Source: Candidatus Lloydbacteria bacterium RIFCSPHIGHO2_02_FULL_50_18
GTDB lineage: Bacteria > Patescibacteriota > Minisyncoccia > Phycocordibacterales > UBA6899
DNA length: 29,245 nt
Reading direction: 5' to 3'
NCBI GenBank assembly: GCA_001821395.1
Contig: MHLM01000007.1
Coordinates: 1 to 29,245 of the forward strand
Under the pieces are notes generated by a model. That model saw nothing but the letters and a program-made list of their open reading frames with translations. It had not been told where the DNA came from and did no database searches. Each line of letters opens with the position of its first letter. Position 1 is the first letter of the stretch. Made by a program: the position numbers and the translations under genes. This document shows positions 1 to 22,553 of the stretch, piece by piece.

Positions 1-72
1 TGGGAAACTCCTTGCAAGGTATTCGGAGCATGTTGCGTTTCAAGATAGAATTTAAGAATCCCCATTCGCTCC

Positions 73-309
73 TCACTCAAACCGAATGATGTTGACTGGG
101 CAGGTATCCGACGCTTCTTTGTTTGCTGCACAGTCTCCTTCGTCAATTGCTACGGACACTACGCCGTTCTTATGCAATACACCACCTTCGAGATCAGATT
201 TGCCGTCGTTGTCATTCATTTTCCAATTTTTCGGTGCAAGCAATACGCAGGATCCGCATCCGATACACTTCTCCCGTTGATGATGAATGGTGATTTTCTT
301 TACTCCCAT
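73..309 (-). CDS. small single-cluster [4Fe-4S] ferredoxin
   Basis: 78-aa ORF. Cysteine pattern C-I-G-C-G-S-C plus a distal C-P, typical of bacterial 4Fe-4S ferredoxins. Its start lies 5 nt after the stop of the upstream U32 gene on the same strand, suggesting co-translation. Confidence 0.7.
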   Translation of the reverse strand: MGVKKITIHHQREKCIGCGSCVLLAPKNWKMNDNDGKSDLEGGVLHKNGVVSVAIDEGDCAANKEASDTCPVNIIRFE

Positions 310-314
310 ATGCG

Positions 315-1565
315 CTACTTTTTATCTCTCCAAAGATACACTTCGTCGTTCGGGCGGACGCGCCTTGAAACCGGAATAGTGATAGCGTCTCCTTTCTTCG
401 CACTCGTGACAGAATGTTGATTCACGTCACGCATTTCAGTGACAGTCGCTCCATATACTCCGGTGGTTTGTCCGATGATTTTGATTTCGTCTCCAATGTG
501 CACTGCTTCTGCGTGGAGAAGTATTTCTGCAACACCCGCCTTCGCGAAATAATTTTTTACCACACCAAGTGCGACACGCTCTTTTGTTGCCTGCGAACCT
601 TTTGTGTTGCTGTATGCATCGAGCTCTTTTCCAAGATAGTAGTTGCCGTGCGATTGACCGCGGTTGTATACCGTTTTGAGCTCATCGAAATACGTTTCAA
701 TCTTTTCCTTCGTGTAGGTACCGTTTGCAACATCCTTAAGCGCTTGCTTGTATGCGTGTGTCACGATTTCAACATACTCGGGTGCGCGGCCGCGGCCTTC
801 GATCTTGAAGACCTGCACGCCCGCTGCGAGGAGCTCGGGGATCTTGTCGATCATGCAGATGTCTGCTGCGCTCATCACGAACTGGTTGTCGACAATGAGC
901 TCTTGCCCTGTTTCCACATCAGTCACCTTGTACGCGCGACGGCAATTTTGACGGCATGCTCCACGATTTGCAGACGAGTTGTCGGTATAGATACTCATGA
1001 AGCATCTGCCGGACTGGGCGACACAGAGCGCTCCGTGCACGAAGGCTTCGATCTCCATCATTCTCCCTTCGTTCCCCAAAAGCTTCTCTTCACGAATCTT
1101 TGTTGCAATGGCTTTGATCTGATCGAGGGTGAGTTCGCGCGCGAGCACGACGCGGTTGGTGAGTTTCGCAAAGAATTTCAGGGATTCATAGTTTGAGACG
1201 GAAAACTGCACCGAGACATGCACGGGCATTCCTATCTCGTTGCAATATGCTAGGGTTGCAAAATCAAAACCAATAATCGCGTCGACACCATTTGCCTTTG
1301 CGGCGTCAACAATCTTCTTCATGAGTACGGTGTCATGGTCGTACAAAAGCGTGTTCACGACGAGATACGCTTTGATCTTCGCAGTATGACAAATGTCCGC
1401 GACTGTCTTGATGTCGTCGAGGGTCATGTTGTCTGCAGCGCGAGAACGCATATTGAGTTGCGTGACGCCAAAATAGATACTGTCGCATCCTGCTTCTATA
1501 GCAGCCTGTAGACTTTCCATACTCCCGGCGGGAGCCATTATTTCCGCATTGTGAGGTGAGATCAT
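315..1565 (-). CDS. peptidase U32 family protein (Fe-S enzyme, RlhA/TrhP/YhbU-like)
   Basis: N-terminus ...MAPAGSMESLQAAIEAGCDSIYFG aligns with the U32 family N-terminus (E. coli YhbU MELLCPAGN...AAIENGADAVY). It carries a C-x6-C-x15-C-x3-C motif (CVAQSGRC...C..RQNC) and an EGRGR motif. The ORF-track start at 1628 is a GTG, and the ATG at 1565 (MISPH...) fits the family better. The start is uncertain. Confidence 0.8.
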   Translation of the reverse strand: MISPHNAEIMAPAGSMESLQAAIEAGCDSIYFGVTQLNMRSRAADNMTLDDIKTVADICHTAKIKAYLVVNTLLYDHDTVLMKKIVDAAKANGVDAIIGFDFATLAYCNEIGMPVHVSVQFSVSNYESLKFFAKLTNRVVLARELTLDQIKAIATKIREEKLLGNEGRMMEIEAFVHGALCVAQSGRCFMSIYTDNSSANRGACRQNCRRAYKVTDVETGQELIVDNQFVMSAADICMIDKIPELLAAGVQVFKIEGRGRAPEYVEIVTHAYKQALKDVANGTYTKEKIETYFDELKTVYNRGQSHGNYYLGKELDAYSNTKGSQATKERVALGVVKNYFAKAGVAEILLHAEAVHIGDEIKIIGQTTGVYGATVTEMRDVNQHSVTSAKKGDAITIPVSRRVRPNDEVYLWRDKK

Positions 1566-1793
1566 GGGAAAAAGTCTACGTGGAATCTCGAAAACACGCA
1601 AGAAGCCGAACGAAGGATTATCGCCCACGAATTTCCAATAACCTGTTCACAATGATATAAAAACCGCCTAGCACATGCGTGTGTGTGCCGACGGTTTTGG
1701 ACCATCAAAAGCCTTCGGACTACCAAAATCACAAAACTCAACAGCTTAAACCACAGAATTGCGAGTAACGCTTTTGTACGTTAGTATGCCCTC

Positions 1794-2969
1794 ATGCGTA
1801 TTCTATCTATAGAGACAAGCTGCGACGAGACCGCCATCGCGATCATCGAGACAACGAGCGACCTGCCTCATTGCGCCTTTAAGATACTCGCAAATCAAAC
1901 ACTGACACAGATCGAACTGCACAAACAGTACGGCGGAGTATTCCCCATGATGGCGAAACGCGAACATGCGCGCACACTCGTACCGCTCCTCAAGGTCGCG
2001 CTCAAAGAAGCCGGGCTGTACAAAGAAACAAGCAGGCATGTCATCGAAAGCCCGCTACGGAAGGAGTTTGAACACATGCTCCTGCGAGAGCCGGAGCTCT
2101 ATGCGCAATTCATCGCCGATGTCCCGAACTGGGACCCGCCGCAGATCGACATGATCGCAGTCACGAGCGGCCCCGGACTCGAACCTGCGCTGTGGGTCGG
2201 TATCAATTTTGCGAAAGCGCTTTCACTCGTTTGGAAGACCCCGGTAATCCCGATCAATCACATGGAAGGCCACATGCTCACACCACTGCTTGAACCGACG
2301 GCGGACGGTATGCGACTAATGGAGACGCTCTTCCCCGTCCTCGGCCTACTCGTCTCAGGAGGACATACCGAGCTCGTGCTGATGAAGACATGGGGTACGT
2401 ACGAACTCCTCGGCGAAACAAAGGACGATGCGGTGGGCGAGGCATTTGATAAGGTCGCACGCATCCTCGGACTTCCCTATCCCGGCGGACCCGAGATCGC
2501 ACGACTAGCGCTTCTTGGCACGGGCGGAAAATACACACTTCCCCGTCCGATGCTTCATGCTGAGAACTTCGACTTTTCTTTTTCCGGGCTGAAAACGGCA
2601 GTGCTCTATCTGGCCAAAGATATCGGCGTCCTCTCCGACGAGCAAAAACAAGATATTGCGCGTGAATTTGAAGAAGCATGCGCGGAGGTGCTCACGAAAA
2701 AGACTCGTCGTGCATCGGAAGAATACGGCGCACGAATGATCGTCGTCGGCGGTGGGGTTTCCGCGAATAAGAGACTTCGGGATACGCTCGTAGAAACGAT
2801 GCGGAACGAAGGAAGTAGCGTACCAGTCTATTTTCCGGGTGCAACATTGTCGACCGATAATGCACTCATGATCGCGATCGCCGCGGCGACGAGACAAGGA
2901 CAAAAACCGCAGTCACTCGACCACATCATCGCCAACGGAAATTGGCGCATCACAAGCGTACTCACCTAA
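1794..2969 (+). CDS. tsaD: tRNA N6-adenosine threonylcarbamoyltransferase TsaD (Kae1/Gcp family)
   Basis: N-terminus MRILSIETSCDETAIAII, an HMEGH motif and an SGGV...N C-terminal region. At 391 aa it is longer than typical, with an insertion after about aa 85. Confidence 0.85.
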   Translation: MRILSIETSCDETAIAIIETTSDLPHCAFKILANQTLTQIELHKQYGGVFPMMAKREHARTLVPLLKVALKEAGLYKETSRHVIESPLRKEFEHMLLREPELYAQFIADVPNWDPPQIDMIAVTSGPGLEPALWVGINFAKALSLVWKTPVIPINHMEGHMLTPLLEPTADGMRLMETLFPVLGLLVSGGHTELVLMKTWGTYELLGETKDDAVGEAFDKVARILGLPYPGGPEIARLALLGTGGKYTLPRPMLHAENFDFSFSGLKTAVLYLAKDIGVLSDEQKQDIAREFEEACAEVLTKKTRRASEEYGARMIVVGGGVSANKRLRDTLVETMRNEGSSVPVYFPGATLSTDNALMIAIAAATRQGQKPQSLDHIIANGNWRITSVLT

Positions 2970-2975
2970 TTAAAA

Positions 2976-2998
2976 AACCGCCACAACGGCGGTTTTTT
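2976..2998. terminator. bidirectional rho-independent terminator between tsaD and the giant gene
   Basis: A-tract, stem ccgcc(2978-2982)/ggcgg(2988-2992) with loop acaac, then T6 (2993-2998). It lies between convergent genes. Confidence 0.6.
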
Positions 2999-3020
2999 AA
3001 TTCTTGGTGATATACCGAAT

Positions 3021-6000
3021 TTATTTTACGTCGACCTCATCGATCGTATTGCGTCTCTTCAAGTACAGTCTCGTGAGCAGGAGTGTAAGGATGACAAGCA
3101 CGATGAGGAAATAAACTGAACTATCTGAAAGATGCAGTTTGTCCGATACTGACCCGACCACAGCGGCAAGTCCGCGCTTCGTGCTTGCACCAGCGACGAT
3201 CCCTTCTTCTTTAGTGACACTCGGATCAGTCTGCGTTCCTGAAAGCTCACCTCCCACATGCGGCATTGTTGCCAACAGGTCGGACAGCGCAAGCCTCCCA
3301 CGATTAACGAGCTTCGGTTCCGGTTTTTCCTTTTCATTCACGTCTATGGCTGCGAACACCCCTTCATTGCCGTTATTGACGCTTACCCCATTAGAAGCTC
3401 CATCGTTCGTATTCATTCCCACAAGAGGTAGTACGGAGGTTGTCGTACTGCCTTCTCTGTGGATCTTGTTGATAAGATCTCGGAATGCCGCAACCTCACT
3501 CACCTGCAAAGACGTCAGTGGAAATTCTTGCTTACAATAGAGCTCATTGACCTTCTTTTGTGTTGTGTAATACACATACCCCGTATTGCCCCGTAAATTC
3601 CAGATCGAAAGCACATCGACAGCGTACCTGTCTTGGAATGCGCGCACCGCGGCATCGGTAGTCGTATCGAAGAATCCGTTGACATCGAGCGTCGTGAATC
3701 CTTCGTAATTCCTGAGAAACGTCTGAAGCTTCGTCACTTCAACCGGATTGTTGTTTGCACCAAGCCTCATGTATGCATTGAGATATGAACACTCCGTTGA
3801 TTCACCGAGCACCGCACCCTGCGTCAGCTCAATTCCGATCGCACCCTCCGTGTCGGTCGTTGAGATCGGACGGAAATATGTCGAAACACCGGAAGGTATT
3901 CCCTCGATAGTGACGCTATGTGTCGTCGAGGCAATTGTGTCGGTCGCAGTAGAGAGATCGTATCCATAGAGCGGAGATGCTCCGAGACTCAAGACGGGTA
4001 GAAGTCCGTACGTCACGCGACTGGTCGCAGCGATGTTGGTATCCCAGGTCACCGTCACGGTCGTTGTGCCGGTGCTGGCAAGATGTTCATTGAATATCGC
4101 AAGCGTGACCGATCCCCCCCCGCAGTTAACTGTACAACCACCTCCACCGGGGACAACATTAACCGTACGCGTGACGGGTGTCGCGGCATGACCCTGTGCA
4201 TCAGCAACATTATAGGAAAGTGTATATGCACCGATCACACTTGCATTAACCAAACCACTGACAACAATACTCGAGGTAATGTCTCCGTCTTCCGGATCAT
4301 GCGCTGTTGCCCCGGGGTCAGCAAAGGTCGTATCCATGGTGATGCTCATTGGATCGGCACCAAGGAGCGTGAGCGTCGGACCCGTGTCGCGCTCATCATT
4401 ATCTTGCGGTGAATCACAGCCCGGATCTCGTGGGAAGTCTGCAAATCCGTCGCCATCGTTATCGCTCCCGTCTGAGCACGCTGCAGGAGGCTCGCCGCCA
4501 CAATTTTGCGTACACACGGCGGGAGTAACGTTCACTGTGCGCGACTGTGTGTCTGCCGCAACATCCTGCGAATCAGTGGCATTGTACTCGATCACATATG
4601 CACCTGCGACCGCCGTATTTACGGTACCAAAAATGACGAGCTTCCCGTCGATCTGTCCGTCTTCCTGATCGTGTACGGTTGCATTCGGTTCTCCATAAGA
4701 TGCGCCAACAACGAGATTCATTACGATGTCACCCAACAGCGTGATCATCGGCTTTGCATTTTCGCTATCGTCTTCCGAGGAACTACAACCCGGATCGAGC
4801 GGAAAATCGGTCAACTCATCTCCGTCATTGTCCCTTCCGTCAGAGCAACTTGTAACAACTCTTACGGTACGTATTTTTGTATCAGCGGCGAGACCCTTTG
4901 CATCTGCTGCGTCATAGGTAACCGTGTAAGTACCGAGCACGTTTGTATCAACGACACCCGTCGTCACGAGCGTGATTGCTCCTTCTTCAGGATCAATAGC
5001 CGTTGCGCTCGGATCAATGAATGTCACACCAAGATGGATCTCGAATGGATTGTCACCGAGCACGGTGATGACCGGCTGCTCATTCTCATCGTTATCCTCC
5101 GAAGAGTCACATCCTGCGTCCCGAACCACCTCAATGTTTCCTGAAAAGTCGACATGACCGTCACCATCATTATCGATACCATCATTACACTCCGTAACGG
5201 GAGGGGTCACGTTCACAATGCGCGTCTTTTCAGCGGCTGCAAGCCCCTTCGAATCTGAAACATTATAGTGAAGCGTGTATGAACCAACAATAGACGTATC
5301 AACGGTGTCCGTCATTAAAATACTTGCAGCAGGGATGACACCATCCTCTTCATCAAATGCCGTTGCACCGATATCGGTAAACGTACCACCCTGCGTAATA
5401 CTAAAGGGATTTGCTCCGACCACGGTAATAACGGGAGCGTTGTTCTCATCATTATCATTCGGACCTTCGCATCCTAGATCTCCACCGGCAAAGTCGGTCT
5501 TTCCGTCATGATCATTATCCTTCCCGTCAGCACACGCTGCGACGACGCGAACGATGCGCGTCTTCGTGTCAGCTGAGATATTCAGTGAATCGGTTGCATT
5601 ATAAGTGATCGTGTAATTGTTAAGGACATTTGTATCAAGGACACCCGTCGTCACCAGCTTTGAGAGCGTAATGTCTCCGTCTTCCGGGTCAACCGCAATT
5701 GCTCCTTCATCAGCGTAGGCATCACCAAGCGTAACAATAGCGGGGTCCGCTCCGATGACGGTGATGACCGGCTGCTCATTCTCATCATTATCCTCCGGGC
5801 CCTCACAGCCAGCGTCACCTCCGACGAAATCGGTCTCGCTGTCGTTGTCGTTGTCTTTCCCGTCGCGACATTGCGGTTTATTTGATTCGGTATTCAAGAA
5901 ATTTTGCCCCGCCAATACTGCACCCGGATCAAGATTCAAAAAATAACATCCGTTATACATTGAGCTGACCGGTGACGTCTCCGTCCATCCGCTCCGAGCG

Positions 6001-7788: not shown

Positions 7789-7816
7789 AGTATATATTCT
7801 ATTTACATGTAGTCAA
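7789..7816 (-). promoter_or_regulatory. sigma70-like promoter for the giant surface protein gene
   Basis: Minus strand: -35 TTGACT (plus 7811-7816), 16-nt spacer, -10 TATACT (plus 7789-7794). It is followed by a leader of about 130 nt. Confidence 0.4.
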
Positions 7817-7970
7817 TGTGTGTTTAATTTTTTGATGGCCCAGTTGAGCCATATAAAGGACATTATTTATGTCTTTTATGCTGTCCTATAGAAATCATAA
7901 AGGACATTTATTGCTGTAAAGCCATAAATTATGCCATGCTTCACCTTCAACTATAGATACTGCTTCGTCA

Positions 7971-11957: not shown

Positions 11958-12042
11958 CCTAACAATTTACCCACGAAACACCAGAAAACCTCAATCGCTG
12001 TGCTTTTCAACCCTTCAAACTCTTTCAGAGTTTGTCCTCGGC

Positions 12043-12069
12043 AAAAAACACCCTTACGGGTGTTTTTTT
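12043..12069. terminator. rho-independent terminator downstream of tRNA-Phe
   Basis: A-run, stem acaccc(12048-12053)/gggtgt(12058-12063) with loop ttac, then T7. It is enclosed by an outer inverted repeat, gtcctcggca/tgccgaggac, that copies the tRNA 3' end. Confidence 0.6.
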
Positions 12070-12073
12070 CTTG

Positions 12074-12146
12074 TGCCGAGGACCAGGGTTGAACTGGTGA
12101 CCCCTCGCTCTTCAGGCGAATGCTCTACCAACTGAGCTACCTCGGC
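12074..12146 (-). tRNA. tRNA-Phe (GAA)
   Basis: The reverse complement folds as a cloverleaf: GCCGAGG TA GCTC AGTTGGTA GAGC A TTCGC CTGAAGA GCGAG GGGTC ACCAG TTCAACC CTGGT CCTCGGC A. The anticodon is GAA and CCA is not encoded. Confidence 0.85.
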
Positions 12147-12286: not shown

Positions 12287-12571
12287 TTAGCGAACTTTAT
12301 CAAGAAGACCCTGGAGATTCGGTAAAGACGCGGCTCCCGAATCAAGTGTCGAAATAGTATGCACGAGTTTTTGGTATGTCTCAAGATATTTCACCAAATA
12401 GGGCTGTACGAAGTAATACGACCAACCCAATACACCAAGGATCACGAGCCAATAGATAAAGGTAAATATCCGCCCCCACAGCATGCTTCGGTGCATTCCA
12501 CGGAGAATGCGGTTATTTTCCTTTTCGATATCGAGAAGTTTGGTCAATGTGTCATGGTCTGTTTCAGGCAT
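12287..12571 (-). CDS. hypothetical small membrane protein
   Basis: One predicted TM helix (IFTFIYWLVILGVLGW). The ATG at 12571 is preceded by TATACT and 6 nt, a leaderless-type arrangement. The ORF-track start at 12577 is a TTG. Confidence 0.45.
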   Translation of the reverse strand: MPETDHDTLTKLLDIEKENNRILRGMHRSMLWGRIFTFIYWLVILGVLGWSYYFVQPYLVKYLETYQKLVHTISTLDSGAASLPNLQGLLDKVR

Positions 12572-12614
12572 AAACAAAGTATATCAAGAAATAATTGCAC
12601 AACAAACCCTACGT

Positions 12615-12638
12615 GGTGCCCCTGGCCGGAATCGAACG
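12615..12638 (-). pseudogene. tRNA 3'-terminal fragment (T-loop plus acceptor 3' strand plus CCA)
   Basis: Reverse complement reads GTTCGATTCCGGCCAGGGGCACCA. It is similar to, but not identical with, the 3' end of the adjacent tRNA-Arg, and no matching 5' part lies within 80 nt. Confidence 0.45.
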
Positions 12639-12659
12639 CACTATTTTTCCTGCAACAAC

Positions 12660-12734
12660 TGGTGCCCCCAGCGGGAATCGAACCTACATCTACTCCTTAG
12701 GACGGAGCTGTTCTATCCATTGAACTATGGGGGC
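12660..12734 (-). tRNA. tRNA-Arg (CCT)
   Basis: 75-nt cloverleaf: GCCCCCA TA GTTC AATGGATA GAAC A GCTCC GTCCTAA GGAGT AGAT GTAGG TTCGATT CCCGC TGGGGGC A CCA. The anticodon is CCT, CCA is encoded, and the T-stem has one A-C mismatch. Confidence 0.75.
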
Positions 12735-12894
12735 ACAAGTTGTTGCAGGAAATAAAATTAATACAAGAATCAAACTGACATCTCCGCCCTACTGGCGCTG
12801 TACACCTTTTGGCTTTTTGTTTCACTTCGTTCACAAAACGACTCAAAAGGTCTTGCGGTGTGGCCCCATCGGAATGGGTTCCCAAAGCCACACC

Positions 12895-12945
12895 TCACCT
12901 TAGGACGGAGCTGTTCTATCCATTGAACTACAGAGGCGACGAGCG
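12895..12945 (-). pseudogene. tRNA 5'-half fragment (acceptor 5' strand through anticodon loop), paralogous to tRNA-Arg(CCT)
   Basis: 33 nt (D-arm to anticodon loop) are identical to tRNA-Arg(CCT). The acceptor strand is GCCTCTG rather than GCCCCCA. The sequence diverges after the anticodon loop and there is no T-arm. Confidence 0.45.
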
Positions 12946-12962
12946 TGATTTCCCTCAAGAAT

Positions 12963-12990
12963 ATAAAAGTCCACAATTGTGGACTTTTAT
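12963..12990. terminator. palindromic bidirectional terminator
   Basis: aaaagtccaca at tgtggactttt is a perfect 11-bp stem flanked by an A-run and a T-run. It lies downstream of the glutaredoxin-like gene on the minus strand. Confidence 0.55.
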
Positions 12991-13019
12991 ATAGTATGTT
13001 TTCCTACTCTCTTTCGCAA

Positions 13020-13268
13020 CTATGCGGGAACGATACCCAGTAACTCTTGGAGTTTCGATTTATTGAATCCTACTATAATATCCTTATCAATGATGATGAC
13101 GGGGACCCCCATTTGTCCGCTCTTCTCAATCATCTCCTGACGCTTCGCAAGATCTTTCCCTACGTCAAATTCCTGGAATTCGACATTATTTTTTTGAAAA
13201 AATTCTTTCGCCAGCTTGCAATAACCACATGATTCTGTCGAATAAATTTGAACGCTTTTCATAGGCAT
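13020..13268 (-). CDS. glutaredoxin/NrdH-like thioredoxin-fold protein
   Basis: 82-aa ORF with a CGYC redox motif near the N-terminus (VQIYSTESCGYCKLAKEF) and a conserved GVPVIII..D..IVGF segment. Confidence 0.75.
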   Translation of the reverse strand: MPMKSVQIYSTESCGYCKLAKEFFQKNNVEFQEFDVGKDLAKRQEMIEKSGQMGVPVIIIDKDIIVGFNKSKLQELLGIVPA

Positions 13269-22200: not shown

Positions 22201-22203
22201 CAT

Positions 22204-22553
22204 GCACCTTGTATCGATAAGCCGAATTCTGTCCCCAAAACGCACGCTTTGGGTGGTATCCATTTATCTAGGCTCTCGGTTACCCGAAAGCTCAAGCGGC
22301 ACTTCCCAACTTACGCCAGGACACGGCCTTGCACCCAGGTAAGGATTTAGCCGTTTCACCCCCGCATTTCGGCGGGATTATCCATCGGATAAATCCGGAC
22401 GGATCCCATTTCTTTCGATCTGGGCGTCACTGCTCGCACCTCTATGGTTGCCCACGACGGGCGTTACCCGCTACCCTCTTACCACTTTCATGGTGAGCGT
22501 TCGGACTTTCCTCACTTCCCTTGCGAGAAGCGCGGATACCTAATACAAGGCTT
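22204..22553 (-). ncRNA. rnpB: RNase P RNA (bacterial RnpB)
   Basis: The minus-strand sequence contains GAGGAAAGTCCGAAC (P4 5' strand) and GGGGACAGAATTCGGCTTATCG (the universal ACAGAAnnCGGCUUA P4 3' strand). A P1 helix forms between CCTTGTAT and ATACAAGG. It also has GGTAACGCCCG and TAAATGGATACCACC segments. The region is GC-rich and non-coding, with only spurious ORFs. Confidence 0.8.

What the first reader, a model, noticed from the sequence alone, without database searches (positions are those of the whole stretch)
12615..12945. tRNA-Arg(CCT) nested inside a disrupted paralogous tRNA, with inverted repeats forming a long precursor stem
Three facts come directly from the sequence. First, an intact tRNA-Arg(CCT) at 12660-12734 is flanked by a 13-14-bp inverted repeat (ttcctgcaacaac at 12648-12660 and gttgttgcaggaa at 12738-12750) that would extend its acceptor stem. 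Second, about 160 nt upstream in transcript orientation lies a copy of its 5' half, with 33 nt identical from the D-arm through the anticodon loop, but with acceptor strand GCCTCTG. Third, just downstream lies a 3' terminal tRNA fragment (T-loop, CAGGGGC, A, CCA). The acceptor strands of these two fragments are perfectly complementary to each other over 7 bp and not to the intact tRNA. So the two fragments are halves of one ancestral tRNA that now bracket a functional gene. This could be a remnant of insertion or recombination at a tRNA gene, or a processing scaffold.
Basis: seen in the sequence. Interest (0 to 1): 0.6.

Follow-up and report, generated by a model that had tools for sequence, protein, structure and literature searches.

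The report
Broken tRNA gene flanking its replacement
In this tiny-genome (Patescibacteria) bacterium, an old tRNA-Arg gene was split by a 113-base structured repeat element and survives only as pieces around an intact replacement copy; the same layout recurs at many genes across the phylum, which points to an undescribed small mobile or recombination-prone element.

Summary
An intact tRNA-Arg(CCT) lies at 12734..12660 on the minus strand. A 5' copy (positions 1-40) lies 163 nt upstream. A T-loop-to-CCA fragment lies 23 nt downstream. A 25-nt inverted repeat encloses the intact gene. Five independent assemblies carry the identical sequence.

The two fragments pair with each other through two compensatory changes relative to the inner gene. 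The sequence between them is not filler. Bases 12897..12785 belong to a conserved structured element, which I call E. It reads ..RG|UGAG, hairpin, CGC-AAGACC, long stem, GGUGUACWG, hairpin. E has no Rfam match. A search for its core found more than 118 Patescibacteria metagenome contigs and no viral contigs.

E sits beside tRNAs of about 20 isotypes. In 16 of 93 copies, a truncated 5' part of a gene runs into E and a complete copy of that gene follows. These genes include tRNAs, RNase HII, MsrA and a kinase. Locus L136 reproduces the full nested layout. L040 has E at the same tRNA-Arg site.

Deleting E never restores a tRNA, so E is not a spliced intron. The best reading is that a resident tRNA was disrupted at the DNA level by E and an intact, homeologous copy compensates. 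How E moves is unknown.

The parts
12961..12992 (.). Perfect 16+16 palindrome (terminator-like hairpin) between the glutaredoxin-like gene (13020-13268, minus) and the tRNA locus. It marks the ancestral start of the locus.
   Evidence: The same hairpin precedes the single tRNA-Arg in relative L125.
12898..12937 (-). Outer tRNA-Arg(CCT) 5' part, positions 1-40 (acceptor GCCTCTG, D arm, anticodon stem 5' strand, loop, GG). It ends at the junction ..AAGG|TGAG.
   Evidence: Positions 8-40 are identical to the inner tRNA.
12785..12897 (-). Element E (113 nt): UGAG; H1 (12893-12857, GGUGUGGC..GGGAACCCAUUCCGAUGGG..GCCACACC); GC-AAGACC (12856-12849); long P stem (12851-12804); GUAC-AG; H3 hairpin (12797-12785).
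   Evidence: Alignment with 83 other copies. H3 covaries. Covariance model R1 scores it 61 bits, but it was a seed member. No Rfam match.
12763..12784 (-). Continuation of the disrupted tRNA after E: G-AGAT (variable loop), GTCAG TTTGATT CTTGT (decayed T arm). Homology then stops.
   Evidence: Local alignment to tRNA positions 24-60. 17/18 identity to the T arms of the L040, L059 and L101 tRNA-Arg genes.
12735..12762 (-). AT-rich spacer plus the left arm of the inverted repeat (TTTCCTGCAACAAC, 12752-12739) and TTGT.
12660..12734 (-). Intact inner tRNA-Arg(CCT) with encoded CCA (acceptor GCCCCCA/TGGGGGC). This is the presumed functional gene.
   Evidence: ARAGORN. Rfam tRNA, 60 bits. Its T arm GTAGG/CCCGC is shared with several Patescibacteria species.
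12646..12659 (-). Right arm of the inverted repeat (GTTGTTGCAGGAAA), directly after the CCA.
   Evidence: I1. It pairs with the left arm in the MFE fold.
12614..12641 (-). Outer tRNA 3' fragment: GTGCG (does not pair with CCGGC), T-loop TTCGATT, CCGGC, acceptor CAGGGGC, A, CCA.
   Evidence: Its acceptor strand is complementary to 12937-12931.

Best explanation
The window comes from a Candidatus Lloydbacteria (Patescibacteria) genome. The conserved gene order glutaredoxin - tRNA-Arg(CCU) - small membrane protein once held a single tRNA gene. That resident ('outer') gene is now dead.

A 113-nt structured repeat element, E, sits between tRNA position 40 and about position 44. The gene then runs on through a decayed T arm, stops, and its true 3' end (T-loop to CCA) lies 138 nt further on. 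Between the two T-loops lies a complete tRNA-Arg(CCU) gene of slightly different sequence, framed by 14-nt inverted repeats. This inner gene supplies the function.

Shown:
- The pieces and their homologies.
- E is a member of a large, structurally conserved family.
- The layout 'truncated copy | E | intact copy' recurs at many tRNA genes and several protein genes.
- The truncated and intact copies are often different alleles.
- Removing E never restores a tRNA.

Inferred:
- E is a non-autonomous mobile or recombination-prone DNA element with a fixed 5' end that lands after RG.
- Because these genomes carry single-copy essential genes, an E-disrupted copy is recovered only where an intact, often horizontally acquired (homeologous), copy lies beside it. 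Most likely the two were joined by recombination within the gene.
- The whole region is probably read from the outer gene's promoter, and RNase P and 3' trimming release the inner tRNA.
- The 25-bp leader-trailer stem is most simply the inverted-repeat ends of the inserted tRNA-carrying segment. A role as an RNase III-type processing stem is possible.
For: - Observation and authenticity.
- Organism and synteny: the neighbouring protein is named Candidatus Lloydbacteria. The Grx-tRNA-Arg-p96 order is conserved in dozens of Patescibacteria species. The closest relatives carry one intact tRNA at this spot (L125, L126), and the outer 5' piece lies just after the hairpin shared with L125.
- E is a family. 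The core was first seen in L034, L062, L088, L106 and L122. An 84-sequence alignment shows invariant UGAG / AAGACCUU / AAGGUGUAC / GUA motifs, and H1 and P are paired but variable in sequence. Three H3 pairs carry 23-39 of 84 double changes. P stems in the 23 of 84 copies that could be parsed have a median z of -5.
- tRNA linkage: 57 of 122 copies lie within 400 nt of a tRNA of about 20 isotypes, and 51 of those are co-oriented with it.
- Recurrent layout: 16 of 93 copies carry a duplicated block that ends exactly at E. The loci are tRNA-Gly, Ser, Ala, Asn, Pro, Val and Thr, plus RNase HII, MsrA and a kinase, where the two copies have different N-terminal alleles.
- Full parallel at L136: outer acceptor GCGGAGA/UCUCCGC versus inner GGAAGGG/CCCUUCC.
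- L040 has E at the same 40|44 site in a second, foreign-type tRNA-Arg copy next to an intact one.
- L224 is a discrete 85-nt insertion, with no target duplication, that splits a histidine-kinase gene (read by eye).
- Not an intron: no tRNA is restored by removing E at any offset in about 120 copies, and a control shows the parser works.
Against: - No transposase, integrase or reverse transcriptase recurs near E, so mobility is inferred only from distribution.
- No clean pair of filled and empty orthologous sites was obtained.
- Most E copies (76 of 93) are intergenic, carry no duplication and are often closed by a flank-to-flank stem. E could therefore be an ordinary small-RNA or 5'-UTR module, with the duplications as a side effect.
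- Positions 8-40 of the outer and inner copies are identical, which needs gene conversion or a recent origin.
- The order of events (E first or inner copy first) cannot be told.
- No expression data are available.
Confidence: 0.6

Rival explanations
1. The whole 12937-12614 stretch is one intron-containing tRNA gene (a 'twintron-like' precursor). E and the inner tRNA are removed by self-splicing or by an endonuclease and ligase, yielding two tRNA-Arg molecules.
For: - Group I introns are common in Patescibacteria tRNA genes (PMC13011429).
- The outer acceptor halves pair, and the precursor folds strongly.
- A 10-bp pairing links the 5' exon CUCCGUCCUA to UAGGGCGGAG at the 3' end of E.
- E begins with (G)UGAG at a fixed junction.
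Against: - No Intron_gpI or other ribozyme match, even at E<=10.
- The insertion point is 40/44 in the anticodon stem, not in the anticodon loop.
- Joining the outer pieces lacks positions 41-52 or has a broken T stem.
- Removing E never restores a tRNA in about 120 copies.
- Junction positions vary from tRNA position 7 to 53, and E also lies antisense in a kinase gene.
Confidence: 0.05
2. These are classical scars of integrase-mediated integration and excision at a tRNA gene. The T-loop-to-3'-end repeat is an attL/attR pair left by a degraded island, and E is merely island-end or attP-arm sequence.
For: - Direct repeats of the tRNA 3' part lie 100-165 nt downstream of intact tRNA-Arg genes in 11 other species.
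- The two T-arm pieces in the window could be read as hybrid att sites: host-left plus foreign-right at 12779-12763, and foreign-left plus host-right at 12641-12625.
- T arms are natural core sites for tyrosine recombinases (own knowledge, Williams 2002).
Against: - Only 138 nt lie between the two T-loops, and no integrase is anywhere near.
- 5' gene fragments are duplicated as well, which 3'-directed integrases do not produce.
- E also occurs far from tRNAs and at protein genes.
- The hybrid-att reading of the two T arms is not unique, because each is also one or two mutations from known T-arm types.
Confidence: 0.15
3. A local tandem triplication of the tRNA gene was followed by decay. E is a resident small-RNA gene or leader that happens to lie there, with no mobility involved.
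For: - Tandem units occur elsewhere: L131 (two), L144 (two to three) and L086 (a 183-bp tandem duplication).
- Most E copies look like self-contained structured RNAs, and AT-rich sequence follows them.
Against: - The outer and inner copies differ by compensatory acceptor changes rather than random decay. At L136, L232, L144 and L210 the two copies are clearly different alleles.
- E interrupts the tRNA copy at a precise point, and the tRNA sequence resumes after it.
- E is found at hundreds of unrelated loci.
Confidence: 0.12
4. The 25-bp leader-trailer stem is a selected processing signal (an RNase III-type site, as for rRNA) that frees the inner tRNA from a long, structured co-transcript. This is the functional 'processing scaffold' idea, and it is compatible with the main explanation.
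For: - The stem is nearly perfect (24 of 25) and forms in the MFE and centroid structures.
- No sigma-70-like promoter is detected between E and the inner tRNA, so co-transcription from upstream is plausible.
Against: - No comparable leader-trailer pairing at the analogous loci L133, L136, L145, L181, L212 and L245.
- All five available copies are identical, so there is no covariation to test.
- Inverted repeats at the ends of an inserted DNA segment explain it equally well.
Confidence: 0.15

Closest known systems
Group I introns in Patescibacteria tRNA genes (Nakagawa et al. 2026, PMC13011429)
   Same: Same phylum. Both are a structured non-coding RNA-like insert of about 100-260 nt that interrupts tRNA genes and makes them invisible to tRNA finders.
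   Different: Those introns match Rfam Intron_gpI, sit in the anticodon loop (33/34 to 36/37), and leave exons that rejoin into a working tRNA, as shown by in vitro splicing. E has no Rfam match. Its junctions range from position 7 to 53, it also lies in protein genes and intergenic DNA, its removal never restores a tRNA, and an intact second copy always lies alongside.
Integrase att duplications at tRNA genes (genomic islands and prophages; Williams 2002, own knowledge)
   Same: A partial tRNA copy in direct repeat lies next to an intact tRNA, with breakpoints in or near the T-loop.
   Different: No integrase and no island is present. Only 23 nt lie between the intact gene and its downstream 3' fragment, and 138 nt between the two T-loops. 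5' parts are duplicated too. The disrupted gene is not rebuilt by the element; a whole extra tRNA is present instead. A conserved structured element sits at the junction.
MITEs and palindrome-associated elements derived from IS200/IS605 (PATEs, REP/RAYT-type repeats; own knowledge)
   Same: Short (85-125 nt), non-coding and multi-copy. Hairpins lie near both ends, the ends are defined, there is a preferred short left-flank motif (RG), and the one clean case shows no target duplication.
   Different: The two hairpins are unrelated to each other. No Y1 transposase or TnpB was found nearby. The internal junction sequences are conserved and H3 covaries. The tie to truncated-plus-intact gene pairs is not a known property of PATEs.
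Homology-facilitated illegitimate recombination after natural transformation (de Vries & Wackernagel 2002; Prudhomme 2002; own knowledge)
   Same: It would give a foreign allele joined by homology on one side and by a 1-3-nt microhomology (G/GG) on the other. It can leave partial duplications of the resident gene.
   Different: It does not explain why one junction is always the first base of E, nor why 10-25 nt of the gene always follow E.

Membership tests
Group I intron in a tRNA gene | Match to the group I catalytic core (Rfam RF00028) | tested here: not met
   No hit at gathering score or at E<=10 in the window region, nor at gathering score in ten relative loci or at E<=1 in nine E-bearing metagenome loci.
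Group I intron in a tRNA gene | Exons that form an intact tRNA once the insert is removed | tested here: not met
   7,059 in-silico removals across about 120 copies gave no junction-spanning tRNA. In the window, joining 1-40 to either downstream piece leaves a defective molecule.
Group I intron in a tRNA gene | Insertion in the anticodon loop (33/34-36/37, PMC13011429) | tested here: not met
   The junction follows position 40 in the window and in L040. Elsewhere it follows positions 7, 24, 37, 41, 46 and 53.
Integrase att remnant at a tRNA gene | Direct repeat of the tRNA 3' part flanking the inserted DNA | tested here: met
   A 24-nt repeat at 88% identity, 12614-12637 versus 12660-12683. 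Exact 15-23-nt repeats occur in 11 other species.
Integrase att remnant at a tRNA gene | Integrase gene or island content between or beside the repeats | tested here: not met
   Only short non-coding DNA lies between the repeats. No recombinase family recurs near E in 118 loci.
MITE / IS200-IS605-derived palindromic element | Many copies at unrelated loci with defined ends | tested here: met
   More than 118 contigs, 122 distinct copies, and a fixed UGAG start and H3 end.
MITE / IS200-IS605-derived palindromic element | Cognate transposase (Y1 TnpA or TnpB) in the same genomes, with autonomous copies sharing the ends | tested here: inconclusive
   None lies within 2.5 kb of E copies. Whole genomes could not be searched.
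MITE / IS200-IS605-derived palindromic element | Filled versus empty orthologous sites showing precise insertion | tested here: inconclusive
   One inferred case, an 85-nt insert that splits a histidine-kinase reading frame in L224. L125 (with E) and L126 (without E at this site) are too diverged to serve as a clean pair.
Known self-cleaving ribozymes (hammerhead, twister, pistol, hatchet, HDV) | Match to the family covariance model | tested here: not met
   No Rfam 15 hit for E in the window or in 19 other loci.
Archaeal-type split or BHB-intron tRNA | Bulge-helix-bulge at the exon-intron junctions and a splicing endonuclease in the organism | not tested
   The organism is bacterial (class A RNase P RNA). 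No BHB search was done. The variable junction positions argue against it.

The most novel reading that the evidence does not exclude
E is a new kind of small catalytic or guide-bearing mobile element. It could be a ribozyme that cuts or ligates at its own 5' end (..RG|UGAG). Alternatively it could be an RNA scaffold whose 3' flank (always 10-25 nt of the target gene, often the tRNA T-loop region, sometimes masked by an antisense copy upstream) acts as a guide for a trans-encoded nuclease or recombinase. In either case it would drive targeted breakage and allele replacement of tRNA genes and of the 5' ends of other genes in Patescibacteria.
Probability: 0.2. Interest if true: 0.9.

Novelty: new variant of a known kind. 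Interest (0 to 1): 0.7.

Why it matters
Patescibacteria have some of the smallest bacterial genomes and mostly single-copy tRNA genes, yet this locus keeps a dead tRNA gene wrapped around a live one. I found no description of the element at the break in Rfam 15 or in three literature searches. It is conserved in structure across much of the phylum and recurs at the junction between truncated and intact copies of essential genes.

If E is mobile, it is a new small repeat family that shapes gene order, creates tRNA pseudogenes that confuse annotation, and marks sites where alleles from relatives have been taken up. If E is catalytic or guide-bearing, it would be a new RNA-based mechanism of gene targeting.

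In either case it gives a concrete, testable handle on how recombination and horizontal exchange work in organisms that cannot yet be grown alone.

Tried and rejected
- Group I intron or known ribozyme: no Rfam match in the window (E<=10), in nine E-bearing metagenome loci (E<=1), or at gathering score in ten relative loci.
- Spliceable intron: in-silico excision of E at all plausible offsets never restored a tRNA.
- Assembly artefact: rejected, because five independent contigs are identical. For the same reason these contigs give no covariation.
- Linked transposase or integrase: clustering 982 ORFs within 2.5 kb of E found only housekeeping families. A LAGLIDADG-like ORF occurs at a few loci only.
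- E as an insert in protein-coding frames: most copies are intergenic.
- Conserved sequence beyond H3: none, only AT-rich DNA.
- Phage origin: 0 hits in IMG/VR with the core pattern.
- Promoter scan of 12450-13100: no sigma-70-type site.
- Literature: three full-text searches found only the group I intron paper and nothing on this element. One search call failed on syntax.
- My regex for parsing H1, P and H3 failed on most sequences. Only the P and H3 statistics for 23 copies are usable.
- The automated junction mapper mis-placed some E starts, so junction positions are partly read by eye.
- I considered reading the two T-arm pieces as attL/attR hybrids. I kept it only as a possibility, because each is also one or two mutations from known T-arm types.

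Full report
**1. What is in the sequence**

- Read on the minus strand, the window has a single detectable tRNA-Arg(CCT) at 12734..12660 with encoded CCA (ARAGORN; Rfam tRNA 60 bits).
- A 40-nt copy of its first 40 positions lies at 12937..12898. Positions 8-40 are identical, and the acceptor strand is GCCTCTG instead of GCCCCCA.
- A 24-nt copy of its 3' end lies at 12637..12614 (T-loop, CCGGC, CAGGGGC, A, CCA).
- A 25-nt, 96% complementary inverted repeat encloses the intact gene.
- The outer strands GCCUCUG and CAGGGGC pair over 7 bp. Relative to the inner gene, pairs 6-67 and 7-66 are changed on both sides.
- Four more contigs from other samples carry the identical 456 nt, so the locus is real.
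- The RNA folds much better than shuffles (z = -5.5).

**2. A fourth tRNA piece**

- Local alignment of the region against the inner tRNA finds a further degenerate piece at 12801..12767.
- Its distal part, AGAT GTCAG TTTGATT CTTGT (12783..12763), is a variable loop plus T arm. It matches the T arms of other Patescibacteria tRNA-Arg genes at 17 of 18 positions.
- The upstream copy is therefore not a bare 5' half. It is a tRNA gene interrupted after position 40 that resumes at about position 44 and then breaks off after the T arm.

**3. Organism and ancestral state**

- The downstream 94-aa protein is annotated as Candidatus Lloydbacteria.
- The order DivIC - (p130) - glutaredoxin - tRNA-Arg(CCT) - p96 is widely conserved.
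- The closest relatives found through the p96 protein have one intact tRNA-Arg at this place (L125 at 76% and L126-128 at 68% protein identity).
- L125 shares the palindromic hairpin (window 12961-12992), and its tRNA starts 21 nt after it. In the window the outer 5' fragment starts 23 nt after the hairpin.
- The outer fragment thus sits where the single ancestral gene sat.

**4. The intervening sequence is a conserved element**

- In several other species, an intact tRNA-Arg is followed 100-165 nt later by an exact 15-23-nt copy of its own 3' end.
- In five of these species the DNA in between shares a core with window 12854..12785.
The same search of viral contigs returned none.
- Eighty-four copies align as ..GG|UGAG - H1 hairpin - CGC - AAGACCUU - P stem - AAGGUGUAC(A/U)G - H3 hairpin.
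- H1 and P differ in sequence between copies but stay paired. The P stems that could be parsed have a median z of -5.
- H3 has three base pairs with 23-39 of 84 sequences changed on both sides.
- Nothing is conserved beyond H3.
- I call this 85-125-nt unit E. The window copy is 12897..12785. Its large H1 (GGGAACCCAUUCYGAUGGG) is shared with L133, L158, L194, L229 and L238.
- E matches no Rfam 15 family in the window or in 19 other loci.
- Three literature searches found only the 2026 paper on group I introns in Patescibacteria tRNA genes.

**5. Where E lies**

- Of 122 distinct copies, 57 lie within 400 nt of a tRNA of about 20 isotypes, and 51 of those are co-oriented with it.
- Most copies are intergenic, often 20-60 nt upstream of a start codon.
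- In L224, an 85-nt E splits a histidine-kinase reading frame on the opposite strand. The protein motif is restored if E is removed, and there is no target duplication. This indicates a discrete insertion with ends UGAG...H3 (read by eye).
- No transposase, integrase or reverse transcriptase recurs within 2.5 kb. A LAGLIDADG-like ORF occurs at only a few loci.
- A covariance model of E finds it in the 8-kb neighbourhood of tRNA-Arg(CCT) in 16 of 120 GTDB species.

**6. The nested layout recurs**

- In 16 of 93 copies with enough flank, the sequence that runs into the first base of E is the 5' part of a gene whose complete copy follows E within about 25-80 nt.
- tRNA examples are Gly (L133, L181), Ser (L136, L145), Ala (L131, two tandem units), Asn (L207, L241), Pro (L212), Val (L245) and Thr (L232).
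- Protein examples are RNase HII (L210, L236), MsrA (L142) and a P-loop kinase (L144, tandem).
- The junction is always ..RG|UGAG, but the position within the gene varies (tRNA positions 7 to 53).
- After E, the interrupted copy continues for 10-25 nt and then breaks.
- The two copies are often different alleles. They have different N-termini with synonymous differences in rnhB and the kinase. They share only about 60-75% identity in tRNA-Ser at L136 and tRNA-Thr at L232.
- L136 reproduces the window fully: an outer 5' part with acceptor GCGGAGA, then E, then an intact tRNA-Ser with acceptor GGAAGGG/CCCUUCC, then a second structured element, then an outer 3' fragment ending UCUCCGC-A, which pairs with the outer 5' part and not with the inner one. 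L145 is similar.
- In L040 (Parcubacteria RAAC4_OD1_1), an intact tRNA-Arg is followed by a second tRNA-Arg copy of a different allele type. Its 5' half has decayed, and it carries E at the same place as the window (CCTGAGG|TGAG ... |TAGATG, with an intact 3' half).

**7. Not an intron**

- I removed E in silico from every copy at 5 x 12 offset combinations (7,059 constructs).
- ARAGORN found no tRNA spanning any junction. It did find 185 ordinary tRNAs in the same constructs and the control tRNA, so the pipeline works.
- In the window, joining 1-40 to 12784... lacks 2-3 nt of the anticodon stem and has no acceptor 3' strand. Joining 1-40 to 12636... lacks positions 41-52.
- E-containing copies are therefore pseudogenes, and the neighbouring intact copy is the working gene.

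**8. Explanation**

- The best-supported reading is damage and rescue at the DNA level. The resident tRNA-Arg gene carries an E insertion at 40/44, and an intact tRNA-Arg gene of slightly different sequence lies between its T arm and its true 3' end.
- Whether E or the inner gene arrived first cannot be told.
- Different alleles occur side by side, the fixed end of E shows G/GG microhomology, and the layout recurs at protein genes. Together these suggest recombination with DNA from relatives, with E marking one end of the exchanged segment. Candidate routes are homology-facilitated illegitimate recombination or Campbell-type integration of small circles. This step is inference.
- The inner gene probably relies on read-through from the outer promoter, because no promoter-like site was found between them. 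This too is inference.
- The 25-bp stem may simply be the inverted ends of the inserted segment. A processing role is possible but has no comparative support.

**9. Related architecture**

- Downstream of intact tRNAs, E and at least one other structured core (GGCGAGGYGGGGU...CUUAGUGACUCGUGAC; L007, L026, L050, L145) occur between an antisense copy and a sense copy of the tRNA's own T-loop-to-3'-end.
- Both copies track the local tRNA sequence. For example, tRNAs with T-stem 3' strand CCTGC or CCCGC have antisense copies reading GCAGG or GCGGG.
- The window's tRNA-Phe has the antisense part of this arrangement without a core.
- This hints at function by base-pairing or at a recombination site built on the T arm. 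I could not resolve it.

**10. Verdict**

- The 'insertion/recombination remnant' reading is supported. The 'processing scaffold' reading is not.
- The main added finding is element E and the phylum-wide recurrence of the layout.

Noticed in passing
window 11995-12060 (minus strand, just downstream of tRNA-Phe 12073-12146): After tRNA-Phe and its terminator comes an inverted copy of the tRNA's own 3' end, split by a hairpin: GCCGAGGAC - AAACTCTGAAAGAGTTTG - AAGGGTTGAA. This is the same 'antisense of the tRNA 3' part' arrangement seen upstream of E cores in other genomes, but here without a core.
   Followed up: partly
L007 ~440-600, L050 ~7790-7900, L145 (after tRNA-Ser), L026 ~1000-1100: A second conserved structured core (..GGCGAGGYGGGGUMGCGAGCACUUAUG ... 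CUUAGUGACUCGUGAC..) lies between antisense and sense copies of a tRNA 3' end. It also has no Rfam hit at gathering score.
   Followed up: partly
L086 4790-5300 (Saccharibacteria MAG DALYDK010000011): A 183-bp tandem duplication covers the leader plus positions 1-52 of tRNA-Arg(CCT). An 18-nt copy of the tRNA 3' end lies 157 nt downstream. This is a different, E-less way of scattering tRNA fragments at the same gene.
   Followed up: partly
L002 (ena:ERZ27254752 k141_1104469) 37-3982: This contig carries the glutaredoxin - tRNA - p94 block twice in inverted orientation. That is either a palindromic assembly artefact or a real inverted duplication in one population.
   Followed up: no
E hairpin H3, e.g. 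window 12797-12785; consensus NNNC-UGUAA-GNNN: The H3 loop CUGUAAG has the form of a 7-nt anticodon loop (C32 U33 G34 U35 A36 A37), with the UGU motif that tRNA-guanine transglycosylase recognises. This may be coincidence.
   Followed up: no
L216 1007-1699, L219 799-1476, L010 5134-5682: HTH plus LAGLIDADG-like ORFs (about 230 aa) lie next to tRNA/E loci in a few contigs. They are too few to link to E.
   Followed up: partly
window 22202-22551 (minus): Class A RNase P RNA scores only 119 bits against a gathering score of 100. This suggests a divergent Patescibacteria form.
   Followed up: no
L129 1-460 (JGI Ga0485834_0118616): Two tandem copies of the window-subtype E, each followed by a terminator-like hairpin, lie directly upstream of the p96 homologue. 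The contig starts inside the first copy, so it is unknown whether a tRNA precedes them.
   Followed up: partly
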